From Adineta ricciae (lineage: Eukaryota): a DNA stretch of 13,323 nucleotides. A program made the translations under genes and the position numbers. The DNA lies in assembly GCA_905250025.1 (NCBI GenBank), contig CAJNOJ010000319.1, forward strand, positions 97,550 through 110,872, in the 5' to 3' direction. Below the pieces are notes generated by a model. The model was given only the letters and a program-made list of their open reading frames with translations, did no database searches and was not told the origin of the DNA. Numbering within the stretch: position 1 is the first letter of the stretch; each line of letters starts with the position of its first letter. Shown here in pieces: positions 2,228 through 13,323 of this stretch.

Positions 2228-2542
2228 ATATGGTTTATTAGGACCAAGTGGATGTGGAAAAACGACGTTATTACGTTGTATTGTTGGTCGTTTCGAATTG
2301 AATTCAGGTGAAATTTTATTATTTGGAAAACATCCTGGAAGTTATGGACATGAAATTCCTGGCCGATCAGTTGGTTATATGCCACAAGAAAATGCTCTTT
2401 ATAAGAATTTTTCTATTTCGGAAATGCTTCATTATTTCGGTCGTCTTCATCATATGTCGAAAAAGGAAATTTTATCTCGAGTAGAATTTCTCATTCATTT
2501 TCTTGATTTACCTTTAAAAACGAGAAAAGTTGCTCAATTAAG
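2228..2542 (+). CDS. ABC transporter exon. Walker A (GPSGCGKTT) and Q-loop region.
   Basis: Acceptor ttcgtag at 2221-2227. Reads (I)YGLLGPSGCGKTTLLRCIVGRFELNSGEILLFGKHPG...YMPQENALYKNFSISEMLHYFGRLHHMSKKEILSRVEFLIHFLDLPLKTRKVAQL. Donor AG|GTTGGT at 2543. Confidence 0.85.
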
Positions 2543-2590
2543 GTTGGTGTTTTCCTTCGAATGAAAATTGAAATGTATTCTTTTGAATAG

Positions 2591-2698
2591 TGGTGGACAA
2601 CAACGTCGTGTTTCATTGGCATGTGCACTTCTTCAACAACCGAAATTATTAATTCTCGATGAACCGACTGTCGGAGTTGATCCTTTACTTCGAGAAAA
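2591..2698 (+). CDS. ABC transporter exon. ABC signature (SGGQQRR) and Walker B (LLILDEP).
   Basis: Splicing restores (S)[36 protein letters not shown]. Introns are 48 nt (2543-2590) and 45 nt (2699-2743). Confidence 0.85.
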
Positions 2699-2743
2699 GT
2701 CTGTTCGAAACAAATTGTCTCTATTTAATACATTTCATTTTAG

Positions 2744-2837
2744 AATTTGGACACATTTAATTGAAATTTGTCAATCAAGTCAAACGACGATCATTATCAC
2801 AACTCATTACATTGAAGAAGCAAGAAAAGCCAATCGA
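2744..2837 (+). CDS. ABC transporter exon. H-loop (TTHYIEEA).
   Basis: Reads (K)[31 protein letters not shown]. Donor GTAAGA at 2838. Confidence 0.8.
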
Positions 2838-2893
2838 GTAAGAGAAAATATTTGTATGAAAAAAAAAGAAAAAAAACACCAAGTTTTGTAAAG

Positions 2894-2968
2894 GTTGGAT
2901 TGATGAGAAGTGGAAGAATGTTGGCAGAAGATGAACCATTGAAGCTTTTAAATCAATATAATCAAACA
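2894..2968 (+). CDS. ABC transporter exon. C-terminal end of the nucleotide-binding domain.
   Basis: Reads VGLMRSGRMLAEDEPLKLLNQYNQT. Acceptor ttttgtaaag, donor GTTGTT (phase 0). Confidence 0.7.
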
Positions 2969-3023
2969 GTTGTTTTTGAAAAGAAACAAATTTTCGTTGT
3001 CAAAACGAATTTGTTAATTTTAG

Positions 3024-3334
3024 AGTTTGGAAAATGTTTTTCTTCATTTGTGTTTCAATGATCAAAATCGAATTGAAAGAGAAAATCTTCCAATTTCATT
3101 CGCAAATCCTTTAACAACAGAAGTTAACACAGATAATTTTCTTCCAATGAATACAAATCAAATCAAAAGTTCGTTTTCATCGAGTTTGTTTTTATTCAAC
3201 ATTTTCGTTGGTTTGATCTTTGAAGAAAGTTCCAAACCAAAAAAAATTCTTCGAGATTATTTGGTTTTTCCTAAATTACATAAAATTCTCGCATTGATTA
3301 TCAAAGATTTAACAGTTATCAAAACAAATATCGG
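3024..3334 (+). CDS. ABC transporter exon. End of NBD (LENVFLHLC) plus the linker.
   Basis: Acceptor ttaattttag. Reads SLENVFLHLCFNDQNRIERENLP...KLHKILALIIKDLTVIKTNIG. This corresponds to the LEDVFLKLC / KxRALLWKN block of ABC-2/ABCH proteins. Donor GTAAGA at 3335. Confidence 0.6.
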
Positions 3335-3381
3335 GTAAGAAAGAGAAATTCGCTGAAAAATCTGAAAATTCTTTTGGAAAG

Positions 3382-3446
3382 ATTTTTATTTTTTCAATTT
3401 TTAATTCCTGTTATTCAAGTTTCGTTGTTTTGCCTTTGTATTGGAC
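3382..3446 (+). CDS. ABC transporter exon. ABC-2 membrane domain, TM1.
   Basis: Reads (G)FLFFQFLIPVIQVSLFCLCIG(R), which matches the conserved FQFLLPVVQVILFCLAIGR block. Donor GTAAGT at 3447. Confidence 0.7.
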
Positions 3447-3499
3447 GTAAGTGACACAAGGAGAATGACAAAAAATTAACTGAAATGAATTTTTTTCAG

Positions 3500-3615
3500 G
3501 TGATCCGAAAGCTCTTCCAATGGCACTTTTTAACAACGAATCTCTCAACAATTTCCCCACGGGCAATGAGAGTTTACAACTCCTTAGTCAAATCAATTCG
3601 GATCAAATTCATTTT
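3500..3615 (+). CDS. ABC transporter exon. Start of the extracellular loop (RDPKxLP..NNE motif).
   Basis: Acceptor ttttttcag. Reads (R)DPKALPMALFNNESLNNFPTGNESLQLLSQINSDQIHF. Confidence 0.75.
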
Positions 3616-3664
3616 GTAAAAAACAAATTCTTTTTCCGAGAAATTATTATCGTTTCTTTTCAAG

Positions 3665-3768
3665 AATTCGTTTAATAATTTCGATCAAGCATTGAACTCG
3701 GTAAAACAAGGTCGATATTGGGGTTTAGCTGAAATTCGAACGAATTTTACTGAAGCGATCAATGACAA
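3665..3768 (+). CDS. ABC transporter exon. Extracellular loop.
   Basis: Reads NSFNNFDQALNSVKQGRYWGLAEIRTNFTEAINDK. Acceptor ttcttttcaag. Confidence 0.75.
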
Positions 3769-3827
3769 GTTTGTTTTTCCCCTCTTTCTCTCTTCGTTTT
3801 GAAAAAATCATTTTTATTGCTGAGCAG

Positions 3828-3898
3828 ATTTTTCAAATTTCAAACGGATCCATTAACATTAAATACATCGTCAATTCATTTATATCTCGATATGACAA
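3828..3898 (+). CDS. ABC transporter exon. Extracellular loop (YLDMTN motif).
   Basis: Reads (K)FFKFQTDPLTLNTSSIHLYLDMT(N). Donor GTAAAG at 3899. Confidence 0.7.
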
Positions 3899-3952
3899 GT
3901 AAAGTCGTTGAATGAAATTCGAAATGTTCGATGAATTATTCTTTGTAATCAG

Positions 3953-4320
3953 ATCAACAAGTGACATTTACAATGCAAAATGTGATTTTAAATGGAACAG
4001 AAATGTTTTTAAAACGATTTTTATCTGAACATGGCTTTGATCCTTCGATTGTTAATCCACCTGTAATTATTGAAAATCCCATTTATGGAAGTTTAACTCC
4101 GAAATTTTTGAATTTCGCGGCACCGGGAATGATGATATCGGTCATATATTTTTTAGCGCTCTGATATTTGTTGTTGAGAAAAAAAGAAGGTCTTTTAGAA
4201 CGAAGTTGGATCGCTGGTGTAACGATCATCGAAATTATGTTTTCACATATCATTGTCAAGTTTTTTATTCAAATTATTCAAGTTGTACTTTTAATTGTTT
4301 TTGCACATTTCATCTTCGAA
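3953..4320 (+). CDS. ABC transporter exon, TMD core. It contains an in-frame TGA at 4162-4164.
   Basis: Reads (N)QQVTFTMQNVILNGTEMFLKRFLSEHGFDPSIVNPPVIIENPIYGSLTPKFLNFAAPGMMISVIYFLAL*YLLLRKKEGLLERSWIAGVTIIEIMFSHIIVKFFIQIIQVVLLIVFAHFIFE. Conserved ABC-2 blocks lie on both sides of the stop. No GT..AG pair can remove it while keeping frame. Confidence 0.65.
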
Positions 4321-4372
4321 GTTTGATTTCGTCGATTTCTCATTTTCTTTTCTCATTTTCTCTTCATTTTAG

Positions 4373-4445
4373 GTGGAATTTAAAGGATCATTATTATTAT
4401 CAATGGCTTTGATTTTTCTTCAGGGAATTTGTGGAATGACTTATG
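4373..4445 (+). CDS. ABC transporter exon, TMD.
   Basis: Reads VEFKGSLLLSMALIFLQGICGMTY(G). Acceptor ttcattttag. Confidence 0.75.
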
Positions 4446-4497
4446 GTTAAATTCAATGACATGAAAATTTGCATTTCATTTTTCTGTTTTTCTTTAG

Positions 4498-4584
4498 GTT
4501 TATTGATCTCTTCATTCTGTGAAAATGAAATGCAAGTTATGGAAGTTGCTATGGGAAGTGTTTTCCCCATGTTACTTAGTTCAG
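4498..4584 (+). CDS. ABC transporter exon, TMD.
   Basis: Reads (G)LLISSFCENEMQVMEVAMGSVFPMLLSS(G). Acceptor tttctttag. Confidence 0.75.
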
Positions 4585-4641
4585 GTTTGTTGAATTGTAT
4601 TGGAAATGATTTTTTTTGTATTGATTGCTTTTCATTCGAAG

Positions 4642-4746
4642 GAATTCTTTGGCCAGTCGAAGGAATGCCATCAGTTATGCGTTTTCTCAGTCACTTTACA
4701 CCGTTAACATATCCTGTTGAAGCGATTCGATGTATCGCAGCACGAG
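4642..4746 (+). CDS. ABC transporter exon, TMD.
   Basis: Reads (G)ILWPVEGMPSVMRFLSHFTPLTYPVEAIRCIAAR(G). Donor GTGAGA at 4747. Confidence 0.8.
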
Positions 4747-4805
4747 GTGAGAGAATAATAGGGAATGATTTTTGTTTGTTAAAAACGAATATTTCTCTTT
4801 GAAAG

Positions 4806-5140: not shown

Positions 5141-5679
5141 AAAATGTTCATTTTATACAATTCGATCGTATTTTATTCTTTTATGTTTCATTGTCTTATG
5201 TCAATCAATGATCACATCTGCATATTTAAGTTCGATTATTTCTTCAATTGAGAATTATTATGGATATTCAACAGAATTAATTGGCATTGCTCTGAGTTCA
5301 TATGATCTCATTTCAGTTATTTCAATTCCTTTATTTTCTTTCATTGGTTCGAGATTTAATCGTGCAAAATTAATCTCTTTTGGCTCATTTTTCTTTGCAT
5401 TGGGAAATATTTTGTTTATTTTACCATATTTTATCAATGGTTATGATATTAATCAATTGACCAATCAAACGAAAAATTCGTCATTCGATGAGTTTTGTTC
5501 TTCGAATATTTCAATTGAATCTCTTTATGAACCTTTCACACGACTTTCTCCATCTTGGTCCTATTATGTGATCATTCTATCAATGATTATCATGTCGATA
5601 GGTTCGAGTCCATTTTATACTTTGGGAATTACCTATTTAACTGATCATTTGAATAAAGATGATCAACCGATTTACACAG
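5141..5679 (+). CDS. SLCO/OATP exon 2 (TM1-TM4).
   Basis: Reads (R)KCSFYTIRSYFILLCFIVLCQSMITSAYLSSIISSIENYYGYSTELIGIALSSYDLISVISIPLFSFIGSRFNRAKLISFGSFFFALGNILFILPYF...LTDHLNKDDQPIYT. This corresponds to the OATP blocks KSSIT.IERRF, GSF(E)IGN, YFGSR.HRPK and YLDD. Donor AG|GTAAGG. Confidence 0.8.
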
Positions 5680-5729
5680 GTAAGGTTTTCTTTGAACAAA
5701 AAAAAAGAATTTTCTTTTGATGAAAAAAG

Positions 5730-6005
5730 GAATTTTGTATGGAATGGTCGCTTTGGGACCTGGAATTGGTTTCGTTTTGGGTTCATATTTTGGATCGAAA
5801 TGGATAAATATAAATGATGAAATCGATTCGTTTGATTTGAATAAAAATGATCCTCGATGGATTGGAAGATGGTGGGCGGGATTTTTAATTTCCTCGACCT
5901 TGTTGTTTCTTCTTTCCATAATTTTATTTACATTTCCATCTTCTTTATCAAATCATTCTCAATTACAACAAACAAATCAAAATGAATCTTCAACAAATTT
6001 TCAAG
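5730..6005 (+). CDS. SLCO/OATP exon 3.
   Basis: Reads (G)ILYGMVALGPGIGFVLGSYFGSKWININDE...DPRWIGRWWAGFLISSTLLFLLSIILFTFPSSL.. This corresponds to OATP 'G.GPA.GF..G', 'PRW.GAWW.GFL'. Confidence 0.8.
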
Positions 6006-6058
6006 GTCACAACTTTTTTTTCTCTTTGTCATATCCAAAACAACTTTTTTTCTTTCAG

Positions 6059-6135
6059 TTTTTCGCAAGAATCTCATTGAATTATTGAAAAATGTCACAT
6101 ACATCTCCATTTCATTGATCAATGCAATTGAAAAT
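6059..6135 (+). CDS. SLCO/OATP exon 4.
   Basis: Reads (V)FRKNLIELLKNVTYISISLINAIEN, matching OATP F.KSL..LL.NP.Y. Acceptor tctttcag. Confidence 0.7.
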
Positions 6136-6197
6136 GTATAGAAAATCTTTTTCTTTCTTCCAAAAAAGAAATATTTCCTAATTGTTGATCAATTTAG

Positions 6198-6584
6198 ATT
6201 TTAGTTGTTTTATTTACAACATATTTGATCAAATACATTGAATCAGTATTTAATTATTCCTCATCATATTCGAGTATCTTAACAGGATTAATTTTATTAC
6301 CATCAGCTATACTTGGAACAATCTCAGGTGGATTTTTAGTTCGACGTTTTCATTTAACAATCTTTGGTTGCATTAAATTGATCTTTATATCATGTTTGAT
6401 TTCTTTGATAAGTTTAATTTTGATTTTATTCTTAAAATGTCAATCAAATATTCGATATTCATTTGATGATCAATGTTCTCAAAAGTGTCATTGTTCCTCA
6501 TTGATTTACGAACCAGTTTGTTATGAAAATCAAATCAATTATCTTTCTCCATGTTATGCAGGTTGTACAAACAAAAATCAAACG
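6198..6584 (+). CDS. SLCO/OATP exon 5, including the first half of the Kazal-like domain.
   Basis: Reads ILVVLFTTYLIKYIESVFNYSSSYSSILTGLILLPSAILGTISGGFLVRRF...CQSNIRYSFDDQCSQKCHCSSLIYEPVCYENQINYLSPCYAGCTNKNQT. The cysteine spacing matches the Kazal-like domain found in the large extracellular loop of OATPs. Confidence 0.75.
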
Positions 6585-6725
6585 GTAAGGTCAACATATT
6601 TTCTTCTAATTAACGTCAAAACTTTGGAAAATAGAAATCATCGTTATTTTTTATCAAAGTTGAGATGACCTTTTTATGTTTGGATCGAAAGAAAAGTTCC
6701 TTATTTTTTTTTCTTTTCTTTTAAG

Positions 6726-7232
6726 AATTATCTGAATTGTCATTGTTTATCAAATGGAACGATGGTTGAAAAAGGTTTATGTGAGAATAATTGTCAAATG
6801 GAATTGATATTTTTCTTTGTAATTTTATTTTTGGTGACATTTTTCGAAACTTTAATGGCAACACCACAATTAATGATTATTTTACGTTCGACAACAGAAT
6901 CTTTGCAATCATTTGGATTGGGTTTAGAAAATTGTCTGATGAAGATTCTTTCTCAAATTCCAACACCGATTTTATTTGGAATTTTGATTGATAAACAATG
7001 TTTATTTTGGTCGAAATCGTCACTATTTAATCATTCAACATCGTGTTTGATTTACAATCAAAAGCAATTTTCATTTACTTTATTTTTGACGATCACTCTT
7101 ATCAAAACGATTTCGTTTTTCTTTATTTTATTTTTATTTTTATTTCATTGGAAAAAACAGAAAAGCCTTTTAATAGAAAATCCTGGAGAGCGAGAACATC
7201 TTTTAAATAATTCATCGACAGATATTCAATAA
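6726..7232 (+). CDS. SLCO/OATP terminal exon (end of Kazal domain, TM10-12).
   Basis: Reads NYLNCHCLSNGTMVEKGLCENNCQ...SFGLGLENCLMKILSQIPTPILFGILIDKQCLFW...* TAA at 7230-7232. An AATAAA overlaps the stop. Total CDS is 1,827 nt (609 aa). Confidence 0.8.
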   Translation, partial: NYLNCHCLSNGTMVEKGLCENNCQMELIFFFVILFLVTFFETLMATPQLMIILRSTTESLQSFGLGLENCLMKILSQIPTPILFGILIDKQCLFWSKSSLFNHSTSCLIYNQKQFSFTLFLTITLIKTISFFFILFLFLFHWKKQKSLLIENPGEREHLLNNSSTDIQ

Positions 7233-7630: not shown

Positions 7631-8207
7631 TATCACACCAAATCGTAAAATTGCCGAACATGAGAAAATGAAAAAATATGCTTCAGACAATGACCTACCT
7701 GACGGTGATCATTTTCGTTTCGATCGTTCGTTAAAAGCAAAAAAACAACAAGAGAATCTACTTGAGAAGGAAAATCAACGTCATTCGGCGGATAATTTCA
7801 ATTCAAAAAAAAATTCATTGGATCAAGTGAAAGAAATCAATGAAGAAAATCAACATTTTATCGACAAGCCAACGATTGAAAGGGAAAAAAACGATAAATT
7901 CTTTTCTCGATTAATTCAAGAATTAAAAGGTTCGTCAATCGATAATGAAGAAAATGTTCAATTGAATCAACAAAATAGTTTCGAAGATTATCAACAAATC
8001 AGTACAAATGACGTCATTGCAAATCAAAATCAACAGCAATCGACAATCTCCAATGAAGAAAACGAAACAAATCTACTTTTCGATCAATTTCATTCGTTTA
8101 TCGATGAAATTACCGAAGAATCGTTTGTGATTACTGGAAGTTTAGATGAAGATACACTTCTTAATCGGAGAAGTAGACGTGCAAAAGGTTTTTCAGCTTT
8201 CAAATAA
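7631..8207 (+). CDS. Low-complexity, N/Q/E/D-rich acidic protein with a basic C-terminal end (RRSRRAKG). Function unknown.
   Basis: Listed ORF 7668..8207 (179 aa) runs to TAA. The upstream in-frame extension to 7631 depends on the putative splice. Composition is coding-like, and AATAAA motifs lie downstream. Confidence 0.55.
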
Positions 8208-8854: not shown

Positions 8855-9374
8855 ATGCGAACGACATTCTTTATACTCCTATCTGCAATTGCGTTTCTCC
8901 AACTCCCATCATGTTCATTTGCGAGTAAGACTTTCTTTTTATACTTTGCTATGTCTTTCAACTTCATCTTTGCCTCTTCTTCTTCTCCTCAAGCTGCCCA
9001 AACGAAAACAGCGGCAGTCGATGCTCATATGGTCGTGAATAAAGGTGGAACTTTGAAAGGAACTATGGTTATTACAAATTGTGATAAAACTTCTCTCACA
9101 CAATCGAAAGAAACTTTAACAAACACATTAACGAAAAAAGTACAAGCTGATGATACCAAAAATTCAAATTCGAAAGTTAGTGTCACGGGTATTCGAGAAT
9201 TAGAACCAGGAACACTTGCTTTCGATTACGAATGCACCGAATCTAAAAATCCCGAAAAAGCTAAAGAAACGTTGAATACCTGTGTGAAACACGATGATGT
9301 GAAGAAAGTTATTGCAAAATCATCATCCAATGTTGCTACAACCCAGGCAAAACAACAAGCAAATGTTCAACAAA
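8855..9374 (+). CDS. Secreted modular protein, exon 1: signal peptide plus Cys domain 1 (degenerate, 3 Cys).
   Basis: Reads MRTTFFILLSAIAFLQLPSCSFA (signal peptide) ... TNCDKTSLTQSKE...YECTES...NTCVKHDD... An in-frame 69-nt GT..AG segment at 8925-8993 (gtaaga...cctcaag) is probably an intron. Donor A|GTAAGT at 9375, phase 1. Confidence 0.75.
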
Positions 9375-9537: not shown

Positions 9538-10161
9538 CTAAAGCTCAACCGGCTACTCAAGCACCAAAAGCTGCAACAGCAGCCCCGAAATCTTCCCAAA
9601 GCAAACCAACCAAAGCTGTTAATCTCGATTGTGACAAAACACATCAAATCGTCGCTCAAGATGAGAATTCAATTACTGGTGTATTTACTGTTCATTCTTG
9701 TAAAGCATCACGTTTCACTCAGAAACAAAGTCGATGCACATCTCTCGGTAGTAAACTCAGTTCATTAGTCACCGATCGTGTAGCTAAAACTGGTGATAAG
9801 AAACCATGTAGCGTTAATATCGTTAAAGCAAGTGGTACATCAACTTCAACTGAATTTCGGTACACACTTCCATGCGAGAAAAGCCGTCAAAAAGCTGTTA
9901 TTGATTCGCTAAAAGACGCTTGTAAAGACAAAAATTTTGCAGATACAATTACAAATATCAAACAAAAAGAACAAGGAGAATCGAGTTCGTCCGAAAGTGA
10001 TGAAAATAACAAGAGTCCAAGTAAACCAGTTAAAGTTGTGCAAACTGAACAGCCAAAGACAACCACGACAGCCAAACCAACAGAGAAGCCAACGACTGCC
10101 AAGCCCACAGAAAAGCCAACGACTGCCAAGCCTACAGAGAAGCCAACGACAGTTAAGACAA
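9538..10161 (+). CDS. Secreted modular protein, exon 2: Cys domain 2 (6 Cys) plus an S/E-rich stretch and the PT-rich linker.
   Basis: Reads (T)KAQPATQAPKAATAAPKSSQSKPTKAVNLDCDKTHQIVAQDENSITGVFTVHSCKASRFTQKQSRCTSLGSKLSSLVTDRVAKTGDKKPCSVNIVKASGTSTSTEFRYTLPCEKSRQKAVIDSLKDACKDK...EQGESSSSESDENN...TTTTAKPTEKPTTAKPTEKPTTAKPTEKPTTVKT. Phase-1 acceptor and phase-1 donor (A|GTGAGT). Confidence 0.8.
10077..10157 (+). repeat. Three tandem 27-nt coding repeats (PTEKPTTAK).
   Basis: Units ccaacagagaagccaacgactgccaag / cccacagaaaagccaacgactgccaag / cctacagagaagccaacgacagttaag. The antisense ORFs 9887..10184(-) are artefacts of this repeat. Confidence 0.8.
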
Positions 10162-10294
10162 GTGAGTCGAATTTTGCCCTTCATTCACAAGTATACTTTC
10201 TTTTCGTCACTCAAAATGAATGCACATATGTGTGGTGATGACAGAGACATGTAGAACAAAAATAAGGATTCAGTACAATCATGTACAATTTTAG

Positions 10295-10674
10295 CTCCAC
10301 GCAAAACCACCAAGGCCGGTGCAACGAAGAAACCACCAGCCACAACACGTAAAGTTGAAGTGAAGAACTGCGATGACCATGACTACAACGACAAAGACCA
10401 AGTCTTGACCGGTAAAATCGTTGTTCAAGACTGTCCATGTGAGAAGCGATTCGCTAACAATGCATCACGTCTTGCTGCCGTTTCATCAACTGTCTGCACA
10501 CAACTCCGAAACTACTTCCAACAACTGTATGGAACAAAGATCAACTACCCATGCAGTCTCAAAGTAGTCGCAGGAAACAAAACGCACACCGTGTTTGCAT
10601 ACACCGTTAACGTACCACAATCAGAACAGAGCAAAGCCAAAGCGGCAGCCAAGAAGGCCTGTCAAGATGATCAA
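10295..10674 (+). CDS. Secreted modular protein, exon 3: Cys domain 3 (6 Cys).
   Basis: Reads (T)PRKTTKAGATKKPPATTRKVEVKNCDDHDYNDKDQVLTGKIVVQDCPCEKRFANNASRLAAVSSTVCTQLRNYFQQLYGTKINYPCSLKVVAGNKTHTVFAYTVNVPQSEQSKAKAAAKKACQDDQ. It is paralogous to domain 2: NCD...LTG..V..C, PCS..V...T..F.YT, ACxDD. Donor GTAAGT, phase 0. Confidence 0.8.
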
Positions 10675-10772
10675 GTAAGTGAAAGCGGCCGTGATAGAAG
10701 TTACACATGGCCGCAAAGCAGACACTCGAGAAAAAGAGAAACGAGTGTTGAGGAATGTTTTACTTATTCTAG

Positions 10773-10995
10773 GTGAAAAAAGTTATCGAACAAGAGTCGC
10801 TCAAACGCGACGGCGATGACGATAGTGATAGTAGCAGTTCGGAAGAAACCACACGCGCGCAAGCCAAGCCTGTAACGACCCAAAAGGCTACTGAGAAGCC
10901 GACGGAAAAGCCAACAACTGCCAAGCCCACAGAGAAGCCGACGGAAAAGCCAACTACTTCCAAGCCCACAGAGAAGCCGACAACAGTTAAGACAA
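10773..10995 (+). CDS. Secreted modular protein, exon 4: acidic/Ser stretch plus PT-rich linker 2.
   Basis: Reads VKKVIEQESLKRDGDDDSDSSSSEETTRAQAKPVTTQKATEKPTEKPTTAKPTEKPTEKPTTSKPTEKPTTVKT. Donor A|GTGAGTCGAATTTTG is identical to the donor after linker 1. Phase 1. Confidence 0.8.
10887..10994 (+). repeat. Tandem ~39-nt coding repeats (PTEKPTEKPTTAK/SK).
   Basis: acagagaagccgacggaaaagccaac(a/t)act(g/t)ccaagccc is repeated. The antisense ORF 10769..11047(-) is an artefact. Confidence 0.75.
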
Positions 10996-11055
10996 GTGAG
11001 TCGAATTTTGTTTCGTCTTTATAGGTGTCATTTTTCTCTTCACTCAAAATGAATA

Positions 11056-13183
11056 CCTAGAGTAGTGTGAAAGATTGTAGAATCAATCTCTTCCTTCGCT
11101 TTTTCTTGGCTTTTGAAACGTCACTGATGTTTTTTCGTTCTACATTTTACACTATTACAACAATTCAAAGATGTTCTTCCATATTTTATTCGAATAAAAT
11201 ATGAAAGAATATCTATGAATCGATCCCTTTTCCGAGAGAAAGGGTTATACAGCGGTTAACTCCTGGGCTCAAAAAGCTTAAAGTTTGTCTCTCTGTCTGT
11301 CCTATCCAATCAGAAAGCAGCATTTGTTAAATCATTGAAATTTACGGATGGCATCCAAAAACTGAGTACTAGTAAGGTAATCTGGGTCGAGGAACTCAAA
11401 TTCCTTGTTAGTTTTTCCTTCACTCACTAAGATCCATCTTCTTCCTTTCTCTTTCTGAAGCAGATGTTTTTCTGAATCTTTTCTAAAATCTCGTATAGAA
11501 GGTAGTGGATGAATCGCTATTTTTGGGTATGATGTGTGCGAGATAGCGGTTTTGGTCGTTGCACCAAAAAGATTTAGCATATCTTACATTATCATATTTG
11601 CCTTGTGAGCTACGATACGTGACGTCTTTTGATAGAATTTTACGGGAAATAGATCCCCTAAAGAGTATACTCGTCAGTGTAATTGTATCTTATTATCCAT
11701 AATGATAACGGCTAGCGGCGAGTGACTGACCGGAGTTTGGCCTACGAATGACTAACCATTAAGCGGTGGGAGTTTAGTAAACATAGCTAGTACTTGAAAA
11801 ATATTCTCTGACAAATGGGTGATTGATTCGGTTCATGAAAAAAGAAGAGTTTTTGTCTTGTATTGACTCTCGTGTGGGACACAACGCCATGATCTAGCTC
11901 GGGAACAGTAGTAACCGCAGTGTCCTATTTGTTCTTCAATGAATCGGAATATGTTCAACAGTAGACCAGTTCTTTCAATAAAGGGTCGGCGAATCTAGGG
12001 TGAGGGTTACTTGTTGTACTAGTGCAAAATGTACAACGAAAAAACATCAATGACATTTTAAAAAATCAAGAAACAACGAAGGGAGAAATTGATTGTATAA
12101 TTTTTTCCCACCACTGTATATGACAATAGATAAAACTAACGTACTAGAGAGTAATCGTTGACGATTAAGAAATACTGTATCGAGCGTTTCATGCGTTGAA
12201 GAACTAAAGCAGACAGAGAGATCAATATTCTACAAACTTCTTCGTTTTCGAGCCCCTATTTTTCAGCCATGCATTGCAACTAACGATAGTTTCCATCGCA
12301 TTTCTTGGTAGTAAAGAGAGAAATATCAATGTTGGGCGAGGCGGTTACGGCGGGGAACTTTACAGATCAATACTAGCTACACAATCAAAGCTAGTTTTTA
12401 CATCATTTAAAACTATGAAAACTGTTTCTTTCACAAAAGTTAATTGTCGCCTTCAGAAGAGCGCTCATCAAACTCATTTTCATCATCGCGATACTCTTTA
12501 CATCCTGTTCTTCATATTCACTCAGCCATTCTCTATCACCATCGGATACACACACAACCGCATCTAAACCCTGAGCTTTATTTTCAACTAAAGCGTTAAT
12601 AACGCAGCTTCCATTTACCCATACAAATACCCTCTTCTATGTGCAAAAGCATCTTCAAAGACTTACTAACTCTAAAAATCTTTTGCCTAACTCGTGCAAC
12701 TTCACCGATGTCTACTATTCAGACCCGCCGACTTAACCCACTGCCTAAGCCAACAGCATGTAAAGTTTCCTCAATCCGACACATGCAGAAACTGAATGTG
12801 TACGGCATGAACGAAAACTTTTCGCTTCATGTTAAAAATATCCTAAAGCGATCAGCGTACAGGGAGCTTTCGCAGCACATTCTCCAACTCTTTTCAAAAG
12901 CTATAATCCTGTGCGTCAAGCCAAGATTCCCTCTAACGAATCTCAGGTTCAATTATACCGCCGCAACCTATCGATTGGCCCCACATCCGCCTAACACCGT
13001 ACCAAGGGAATTTACGTTACCGCAGACACTATCGCACACAGTGAGAAGCGACCCAATCAAGAACATTCCCTCCACATAAGTCATAGTACGCTAACGACAA
13101 AAGCACACATTACCGATATAATATTCTATCTCAGAAGCCCTACAGCGACGCACTTTCTAAGAGCCATCTACTTTTCTGCCTTT
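11056..13183. mobile_element. ~2.1 kb compositionally distinct insertion inside the intron of the newest module. Possibly a degenerate transposable element or other foreign-derived DNA.
   Basis: The equivalent intron of the older module (10162-10294) is ~130 nt. Here the homologous flanks (cactcaaaatgaat ... atcaCATACAATTcTAG) are separated by ~2.1 kb. That stretch has higher GC, strong A+C strand skew from 12400-13180, and no convincing spliced gene. It contains minus ORF 11332..11580 and a start-less, protein-like minus frame at ~12385-12650. Confidence 0.3.
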
Positions 13184-13205
13184 CACCTATCACATACAAT
13201 TCTAG

Positions 13206-13323
13206 CTCCACGCAAAACCACCAAGGCCGGTGCAACGAAGAAACCACCAGCCACAACACGTAAAGTTGAAGTGAAGAACTGCGATGACCATGACTACAAC
13301 GACAAAGACCAAGTCTTGACCGG
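13206..13323 (+). CDS. Secreted modular protein, exon 5 (partial): start of a further copy of Cys domain 3.
   Basis: The 118 nt from the acceptor ag to the window end are 100% identical to 10295-10412. The same phase-1 junction continues the reading frame. Confidence 0.6.

What the first reader, a model, noticed from the sequence alone, without database searches (positions are those of the whole stretch)
10295..13323. Perfect tandem duplication with a 2,911-bp period: either a very recent module duplication or a collapsed repeat
13206-13323 is identical, base for base, to 10295-10412. The preceding acceptor context is similar but not identical (acaattttag at 10285-10294 vs acaattctag at 13196-13205). 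Older modules have diverged substantially. So the last unit (domain exon + linker exon + intron) has been copied so recently that no substitutions are visible in the available 118 bp. Actively expanding or contracting coding tandem arrays are typical of surface, mucin-like or host-interaction genes. They are also a frequent site of assembly error.
Basis: seen in the sequence. Interest (0 to 1): 0.65.

Follow-up and report, generated by a model that had tools for sequence, protein, structure and literature searches.

The report
Homogenised tandem module in rotifer mucin-like gene
The perfect repeat is real: it is the start of a second copy of a protein-coding module in a secreted, mucin-like gene of a bdelloid rotifer. 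The duplication is old, and its copies are kept identical by gene conversion or unequal crossing-over, which is an ordinary process for tandem coding arrays.

Summary
Confirmed: 10295-10412 equals 13206-13323 base for base. The exact match is 121 bp (10292-10412 = 13203-13323) and runs to the last base of the window.

It is the first part of a fourth module of a secreted modular gene that starts at 8855: signal peptide, M1, M2, M3, M4. All module exons are phase 1-1. Flanking genes place the window in a bdelloid rotifer.

"Copied so recently that no substitutions are visible" is not supported. Two metagenome contigs from a roughly 9%-diverged relative carry both copies. One of them carries the same long-intron-to-exon junction. 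In the 118 bp, each lineage's two copies are identical to each other, yet the lineages differ at 9 sites. The duplication therefore predates the split, and the exons have been homogenised (concerted evolution). The 17 homologous intron bases just upstream have 3 mismatches, against 0 in 118 exon bases.

Four more distant loci show the same habit, including at least 3.8 identical 1,379-bp units.

A single-copy artefact is unlikely. However, the window probably ends because of the repeat, so copy number is unresolved.

The module has no Pfam match and a weakly SEA-like predicted fold. This is a known kind of phenomenon, of low to moderate interest.

The parts
8855..8924 (+). Exon 1 of the modular gene. 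It encodes the signal-peptide-like N-terminus MRTTFFILLSAIAFLQLPSCSFA and ends in phase 1 before a GTAAGA donor.
   Evidence: ORF list and sequence reading. The signal peptide was judged by eye, not with a predictor.
8994..9374 (+). Module M1 exon (phase 1-1), a distant member of the same domain family.
   Evidence: Orthologous M1 is found in L005 (57% aa) and L003. It aligns weakly with M2 and M3.
9538..10161 (+). Module M2 exon (phase 1-1): domain, acidic Ser-rich patch and Pro/Thr-rich linker. It contains a 27-bp coding tandem repeat at 10051-10152.
   Evidence: It is 95.8% identical to L001.
10162..10294 (+). Short intron between M2 and M3 (GTGAGT...TTTTAG).
   Evidence: It is 82% identical to the L001 intron.
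10295..10674 (+). Module M3 exon A (copy 1): basic linker plus a Cys-containing domain of about 105 aa. The predicted fold is beta-alpha-beta-beta-alpha.
10675..10772 (+). Intron inside module M3.
   Evidence: It is 76% identical to L001.
10773..10995 (+). Module M3 exon B: acidic/Ser patch and (T)EKPT-type Pro/Thr linker (39-bp tandem repeat at 10893-10981). It ends in phase 1 with the same ...ACAGTTAAGACAA|GTGAGTCGAATTTTG as M2.
   Evidence: (family D1).
10996..13205 (+). Long (2,210-bp) intron between copy 1 and copy 2. Its first ~91 bp are homologous to the start of the short intron, and its last 17 bp to the end of the short intron. The rest is inserted material, including an inverted repeat (arms about 11052-11163 and 12011-12122).
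   Evidence: Its last ~490 bp are homologous to L004 1-476 (66% identity, E = 2.6e-29). No Pfam hits for its ORFs.
13206..13323 (+). Start of module M4 exon A (copy 2). It is identical to 10295-10412, in the same reading phase, and is cut off by the end of the window.
10292..10412 (+). Copy 1 of the exact 121-bp match. Its partner is 13203-13323.

Best explanation
The window holds the 5' part of a bdelloid-rotifer gene for a secreted, mucin-like protein. The protein is built from phase 1-1 modules: a Cys-containing alpha/beta domain of about 105 aa with a weakly SEA-like predicted fold, then an acidic Ser-rich patch, then a Pro/Thr-rich linker. The last module in view (M3: exon A, intron, exon B) is followed after a 2.2-kb intron by a second copy (M4), of which only the first 118 bp lie inside the window. 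The duplication is not new. It was already present, with the long intron, in the common ancestor of this lineage and a relative that differs by about 8-9% in these exons. The two copies stay identical because they are repeatedly homogenised, either by gene conversion between neighbouring copies or by cycles of unequal crossing-over. The unique intron sequence around them diverges freely. Shown: the identity, the exon-intron anatomy, the shared junction, and the pattern 'paralogues identical, orthologues different'. Inferred: the homogenising mechanism, that copy 2 continues through the whole module, and the protein's role as an extracellular glycoprotein.
For: (1) Identity and anatomy.

(2) L001 (ENA metagenome) is a 91% DNA orthologue of window 9568-10891, i.e. 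M2, intron and copy 1. L004 comes from a different sample. It carries the same exon behind a different upstream sequence, which aligns to the tail of the window's long intron (intron-only alignment 66% over about 490 bp, E = 2.6e-29; alignment shown).

(3) In the 118 bp: W1-W2 0 differences, R1-R2 0, W1-R1 9, W2-R2 9. Over exon A (380 bp): W1-R1 32 differences, of which only 6 codons change the amino acid, and R1-R2 3. R1-R2 differ at 8 of 612 positions, across exon A, the intron and exon B. If the copies had diverged independently since before the split, at least 9 differences would be expected where 0 are seen (Poisson probability about 1e-4).

(4) In the window, 3 of the 17 homologous intron bases differ against 0 of 118 exon bases (p = 0.0017).

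(5) Family-wide pattern. In L005, a long-read contig that shares the upstream ABC-transporter membrane-domain exon and modules M1 and M2 with the window, at least 3.76 units of 1,379 bp show no differences. Exon A copies within a locus are 97.4% (L006) and 99.5% (L007) identical, but 73% in L003. In a distance matrix of 20 copies, neighbours in one locus are 0-2% apart (25% in L003). Copies from different organisms are 8-42% apart.

(6) Long proteins of the family have up to about 8 near-identical modules in a row.

(7) Taxon: the ABC-transporter exons are 82% identical to Rotaria sp. and 77% to Didymodactylos. Named family members come from Adineta steineri and Rotaria socialis.
Against: Only 118 bp of copy 2 are visible, so the extent of the copy in this genome is inferred from the relative.

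L001 and L004 are low-coverage (about 2x) short-read metagenome contigs from two samples. Inside the repeat their sequence could mix reads from both copies. Only the exon bases adjacent to each unique intron are securely copy-specific; the first 60 bp hold 5 of the 9 diagnostic sites.

The perfect identity of the L005 units could be inflated by consensus polishing at 5x coverage.

The data cannot separate gene conversion from unequal crossing-over.

The identity at the window's end is partly selected for: an assembler stops exactly where an exact k-mer recurs.
Confidence: 0.72

Rival explanations
1. Very recent duplication: the 2.9-kb unit was copied so recently that no substitutions have accumulated, with no homogenisation involved.
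For: 0 differences in 118 bp. Arrays in this family clearly expand: L005 has at least 3.76 identical units and P0177 has about 8 modules.
Against: The junction 'long intron - exon A' is shared with a lineage whose exons differ by 8-9%. The 9 lineage-specific substitutions are present in both copies of each lineage. 3 of the 17 adjacent homologous intron bases differ.
Confidence: 0.1
2. The array has more than two copies and the assembly is unresolved or collapsed. The contig walks through one unit and the long intron, then stops when it re-enters the repeat, so the visible 121 bp are the assembler's overlap. This concerns copy number and is compatible with the best explanation.
For: The window ends exactly 121 bp (an odd, k-mer-like length) after the last mismatch. 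A randomly placed end would fall that close to the start of the repeat about 1% of the time. The window length, 13,323, is not a round number. The L005 contig also ends inside its array, and L001 ends in the Pro/Thr repeat.
Against: There is no read depth or assembly graph to examine. In the relative, only two junction types were recovered (L001, L004).
Confidence: 0.35
3. Assembly artefact with a single true copy, caused by a false join or a chimeric read linking the intron back to exon A.
For: Repeat-rich coding arrays are frequent sites of misassembly (general knowledge). Only 121 bp support the second copy.
Against: An independent assembly from another sample and lineage has the same junction, with a homologous upstream intron and an intact acceptor site. 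There the copy continues for at least 612 bp. The reading phase across the junction is preserved. Tandem M3 modules occur in L003, L005, L006 and L007.
Confidence: 0.04
4. Independent, parallel duplications of the same module in the two lineages after they split.
For: The family is prone to amplification in many species.
Against: It would need the same breakpoint about 17-19 bp upstream of the exon, and the same long intron placed in front of the new copy, in both lineages.
Confidence: 0.03

Closest known systems
Concerted evolution of tandemly repeated coding modules (gene conversion or unequal crossing-over in mucin-type and other repeat arrays); general knowledge
   Same: Head-to-tail coding units. 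Paralogues are identical within a lineage while orthologues differ. Homogenised exons sit next to freely diverging unique intron sequence. Copy number and module composition vary between species.
   Different: The repeat unit here spans two exons and includes a 2.2-kb intron that does not take part in the homogenisation. No conversion tract was mapped directly.
MUC16-type mucins: tandem SEA domains separated by Pro/Thr/Ser-rich linkers
Gene conversion between homologous copies in bdelloid rotifer genomes (discussed in PMC5916493)
   Same: Same group of animals, and the same kind of mechanism (DSB repair or mitotic recombination that homogenises similar sequences) is invoked.
   Different: The literature concerns allelic or homologous copies on different chromosomes. 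Here the partners are neighbouring paralogous modules within one gene. No experiment links the two.

Membership tests
Tandem module array under concerted evolution | At least two head-to-tail copies of the unit at the locus | tested here: met
   121-bp exact second copy at a period of 2,911 bp in the same reading phase. In the relative, the second copy runs for at least 612 bp. Only 4% of the second unit is visible in the window itself.
Tandem module array under concerted evolution | Paralogues within a lineage are more alike than orthologues between lineages | tested here: met
   118 bp: W1-W2 0, R1-R2 0, W-R 9 differences. Exon A: R1-R2 3 against W-R 32-33. Matrix of 20 copies.
Tandem module array under concerted evolution | The duplication predates the lineage split (shared junction or flank) | tested here: met
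   L004 1-476 aligns to the tail of the window's long intron (66%, E = 2.6e-29). It does not align to the copy-1 intron.
Tandem module array under concerted evolution | Directly mapped conversion tracts or recombinant arrays | tested here: inconclusive
   There is a sharp change from 3/17 mismatches to 0/118 at the intron-exon border. In the relative, the first difference appears only at offset 265. These are suggestive of tract borders but no tract is demonstrated.
SEA domain (Pfam PF01390) | Sequence match to the family profile | tested here: not met
   No SEA hit for the window modules or for any of the 37 aligned members at E <= 1. A profile search against PDB sequences gave nothing.
SEA domain (Pfam PF01390) | Alpha/beta sandwich fold superimposable on solved SEA domains | tested here: inconclusive
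SEA domain (Pfam PF01390) | G|S[VI]VV autoproteolysis motif at the beta2-beta3 turn (present in many SEA domains, not all) | tested here: not met
   The turn reads VVAGNKTHTVF. Gly is invariant but is followed by N or D, not by S-V-V-V (alignment).
Secreted mucin-like glycoprotein | N-terminal signal peptide | tested here: inconclusive
   MRTTFFILLSAIAFLQLPSCSFA has the n-, h- and c-region form of a signal peptide. No predictor was available.
Secreted mucin-like glycoprotein | Pro/Thr/Ser-rich tandem repeats | tested here: met
   27-bp and 39-bp coding tandem repeats give (T)EKPTTAKP-type linkers. There is a weak Pfam 'PT' hit below the cut-off.
Secreted mucin-like glycoprotein | Dense O-glycosylation and an extracellular location | not testable with these tools
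   Needs biochemistry or proteomics.
Assembly artefact (false duplication) | The junction is absent from independent data | tested here: not met
   The junction is present in L004, from another sample and lineage. The exact window junction was not found in JGI metagenomes, which only shows that this species is not represented there.
Assembly artefact (false duplication) | Read depth or long reads inconsistent with two copies | not testable with these tools
   No reads are available.

The most novel reading that the evidence does not exclude
This bdelloid-restricted family of SEA-like mucin genes might be a natural recorder of ectopic (between-paralogue) gene conversion in animals that lack conventional meiosis. 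Exons would be homogenised within a few hundred base pairs while flanking introns diverge, and arrays would expand to many identical units in some species. If rates and tract lengths could be read from such arrays across species with different desiccation habits, they would bear on the open question of how bdelloids recombine and repair their genomes. The domain may also be an undescribed, highly divergent branch of SEA domains.
Probability: 0.25. Interest if true: 0.5.

Novelty: new member of a known kind. Interest (0 to 1): 0.3.

Why it matters
The result replaces 'brand-new duplication or artefact' with a specific, testable picture: an old tandem module duplication whose exons are kept identical by homogenisation. 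This is ordinary biology for mucin-like arrays. Three points give it modest extra value. The module family is unannotated (no Pfam match) and appears confined to bdelloid rotifers. Its arrays differ strikingly between species, from two diverged copies to at least four identical ones and higher-order M2-M2-M3 repeats. Bdelloids are a group in which the extent and mechanism of gene conversion are actively debated. Practically, it warns that the gene model and copy number at this locus cannot be trusted from this assembly.

Tried and rejected
(1) Looked for the window's own genome to read beyond 13323. The protein search found no 100% match for the module; the best was 95%. An exact search for the copy-2 junction in JGI metagenomes found nothing. 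One ABC-transporter fragment (P0167) is 100% identical to the window, but only on a 604-bp contig.

(2) Pfam on all modules and on the ORFs of the long intron: nothing above the cut-offs.

(3) Profile search against PDB sequences: nothing. Foldseek against PDB: nothing significant. The AFDB library was unavailable.

(4) Considered that the long intron holds a transposon. It has an inverted repeat of about 110 bp (81% identical arms) about 850 bp apart. Its left arm overlaps sequence homologous to the short intron. It has no protein hit and no other copy in the window or in the fetched loci, so it was left unclassified.

(5) Considered purifying selection as the cause of the identity. Rejected, because most of the 32 differences between lineages in exon A are silent (6 amino-acid changes), yet the paralogues share them.

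(6) JGI loci L008-L014 were too short to show arrays. They were used only in the distance matrix.

It was repeated with exon A alone.

Full report
**Observation**

The two stretches 10295-10412 and 13206-13323 are identical at all 118 positions. Including the three intron bases 'tag', the exact match is 121 bp (10292-10412 = 13203-13323) and ends on the last base of the window. Ungapped similarity continues only 17 bp upstream of the exon, with 3 mismatches, and is then lost. The period is 2,911 bp. Only 4% of the supposed second unit is visible.

**What the locus is**

The window is AT-rich eukaryotic DNA with short GT-AG introns. It carries three genes:
- an ABC transporter (ABC_tran at 2568-2888, ABC2_membrane at 4443-4799);
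- an OATP/SLCO transporter with a Kazal domain (5208-7229);
- from 8855, a modular gene.

The ABC-transporter exons are 82% identical to Rotaria sp. Silwood1 and 77% to Didymodactylos carnosus. Named relatives of the modular protein come from Adineta steineri and Rotaria socialis. The source is therefore a bdelloid rotifer that is not among the annotated species.

**Gene model (read)**

| Feature | Coordinates | Notes |
|---|---|---|
| Exon 1 | 8855-8924 | Signal-peptide-like MRTTFFILLSAIAFLQLPSCSFA |
| M1 | 8994-9374 | |
| M2 | 9538-10161 | |
| Short intron | 10162-10294 | |
| M3 exon A | 10295-10674 | |
| Intron | 10675-10772 | |
| M3 exon B | 10773-10995 | |
| Long intron | 10996-13205 | |
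| M4 exon A | 13206 onwards | Cut by the window end |

Every module starts 'ag|CT' in phase 1 and ends in phase 1, so modules can be added or removed without breaking the reading frame. Each module has three parts:
- a basic or Pro/Thr-rich lead-in;
- a Cys-containing domain of about 105 aa;
- an acidic Ser-rich patch followed by (T)EKPT-type repeats, encoded by 27-bp and 39-bp tandem repeats.

**The domain**

**Age of the duplication: the key test**

The closest database hits are metagenome ORFs. L001 (ENA sample ERZ12289983) is a 91% DNA orthologue of window 9568-10891. It covers M2, the short intron, exon A, the inner intron and the start of exon B. L004 (sample ERZ12289978) carries the same exon A, but its upstream 476 bp align to the tail of the window's long intron. 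That intron-only alignment is 66% identical with E = 2.6e-29. The four-way alignment shows that this upstream sequence is unlike the short intron. L004 is therefore the orthologue of the window's copy 2. Consequently the junction 'long intron - exon A' already existed in the common ancestor.

Counts:

| Comparison | 118-bp region | Exon A (380 bp) |
|---|---|---|
| W1 vs W2 (window copies) | 0 | not visible |
| R1 vs R2 (relative's copies) | 0 | 3 |
| W1 vs R1 | 9 | 32 |
| W2 vs R2 | 9 | not visible |

Only 6 of the 32 W1-R1 differences fall in codons that change the amino acid. From the start of exon A to the end of L001, R1 and R2 differ at 8 of 612 positions. All nine lineage-specific substitutions in the 118 bp are carried by both copies of a lineage.

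If the copies had evolved independently since before the split, at least 9 differences would be expected between W1 and W2 where none is seen (Poisson probability about 1e-4). Because most of the between-lineage changes are silent, purifying selection cannot explain the identity. This is the classical signature of concerted evolution.

A within-window observation agrees. The 17 intron bases that are still homologous between the copies carry 3 mismatches, against 0 in the next 118 exon bases (p = 0.0017).

**The same habit elsewhere in the family**

- **L005.** This is the end of a 57.7-kb long-read metagenome contig that shares the upstream ABC-transporter membrane-domain exon and modules M1 and M2 with the window. 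It has at least 3.76 units of 1,379 bp without a single difference, and the array runs to the end of the contig.
- **L006.** Two M3 copies, 97.4% identical.
- **L007.** Two M3 copies, 99.5% identical, inside a higher-order M2-M2-M3 repeat.
- **L003.** Two copies only 73% identical.
- **Distance matrix.** Among 20 exon A copies, the nearest relative of each copy in a multi-copy locus is its neighbour in the same locus. Copies within a locus are 0-2% apart, apart from the diverged pair in L003. Copies from different organisms are 8-42% apart.
- **Long ORFs.** Other metagenome ORFs hold up to about 8 near-identical M2-type modules (P0177). P0179 has the same M1-M2-M2-M3 order as the window.

**The long intron**

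Its first ~91 bp are homologous to the first 98 bp of the short intron, and its last 17 bp to the short intron's end. It therefore looks like a short intron that received about 2.1 kb of extra DNA. That DNA includes an inverted repeat (arms about 11052-11163 and 12011-12122, 81% identical). It has no protein-family hit. At least its right-hand ~490 bp are shared with the relative.

**Assembly caveat**

The window ends exactly 121 bp after the last mismatch. A randomly placed end would fall that close to the start of the repeat about 1% of the time. In addition, 121 is an odd, k-mer-like number, and the window length (13,323) is not round. I infer that the window ends at a contig end produced when the assembler re-entered the repeat. 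This has three consequences:
- The copy number is at least 2 but unknown.
- 'No substitutions in 118 bp' is partly a by-product of where an assembler stops.
- The sequence of 'copy 1' could be a consensus of several copies.

A one-copy artefact is unlikely, because the junction exists in an independent assembly of a related lineage and the reading phase is preserved. Caveats also apply to the relatives. L001 and L004 have about 2x coverage, so their sequence inside the repeat could mix reads from both copies; the exon bases next to each unique intron are securely linked to it, and the first 60 bp hold 5 of the 9 diagnostic sites. Polishing at 5x coverage could inflate the identity of the L005 units.

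**Mechanism**

The most likely mechanism is gene conversion between adjacent modules during double-strand-break repair or mitotic recombination, and/or unequal sister-chromatid exchange that contracts and re-expands the array. This is an inference from the pattern. Homogenisation by gene conversion is discussed for homologous copies in bdelloid genomes (PMC5916493). No data here link that process directly to this array.

**Verdict**

The repeat is real. It is the beginning of a further module of a mucin-like gene. Copy number is unresolved. This is a new example of a well-known phenomenon in an unannotated, rotifer-restricted protein family.

Noticed in passing
window 13203-13323 (end of window): The exact match to 10292-10412 is 121 bp and stops on the last base of the window. 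This odd, k-mer-like length suggests that the window ends at a contig end created by the repeat.
   Followed up: partly
window 11052-11163 and 12011-12122: An inverted repeat of about 110 bp (81% identical arms, about 850 bp apart) lies inside the 2.2-kb intron. The left arm overlaps sequence homologous to the short intron 10162-10294. It could be a foldback or MITE-like insertion, or a local inverted duplication. It has no protein hits and no other copy in the window or the fetched loci.
   Followed up: partly
window 12500-13200: The right half of the long intron is unusually C-rich (GC 43%, GC skew -0.39, against about 30% GC elsewhere). It contains a 146-aa ORF (12639-13079) with no Pfam match. 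Its origin is unknown.
   Followed up: partly
window 10101-10176 and 10935-11010: The 3' ends of the M2 exon and of M3 exon B, plus the first 15 intron bases, are 91% identical, although the domains of M2 and M3 share only about 29% amino-acid identity. Linker ends and donor sites may also be homogenised between different module types.
   Followed up: no
window 2298-4802 and 5208-7232: Two transporter genes lie upstream on the + strand: an ABC transporter (closest named hits 'ABC transporter G family member 23-like') and an OATP/SLCO transporter with a Kazal domain. The ABC-transporter membrane-domain exon is matched upstream of the L005 array, but no OATP match was found in L005.
   Followed up: partly
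window 7668-8207: A 179-aa low-complexity, Asn/Gln/Glu-rich ORF lies between the OATP gene and the modular gene. It has no family hit. It may be the cytoplasmic tail of the OATP gene or a separate gene.
   Followed up: no
L007 3000-11900: A related metagenome locus has a higher-order array (M2-M2-M3 repeated with a period of about 2,844 bp, then a run of M2 modules). A gene just downstream of the array (13452-13913) matches Pfam pAdhesive_15. This is a hint at an adhesive role and was not examined.
   Followed up: no
L001 / window 9568-10674: Between the two lineages the M2 exon is 95.8% identical but M3 exon A only 91.6%. The homogenised module therefore seems to evolve faster than its single-copy neighbour.
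   Followed up: no
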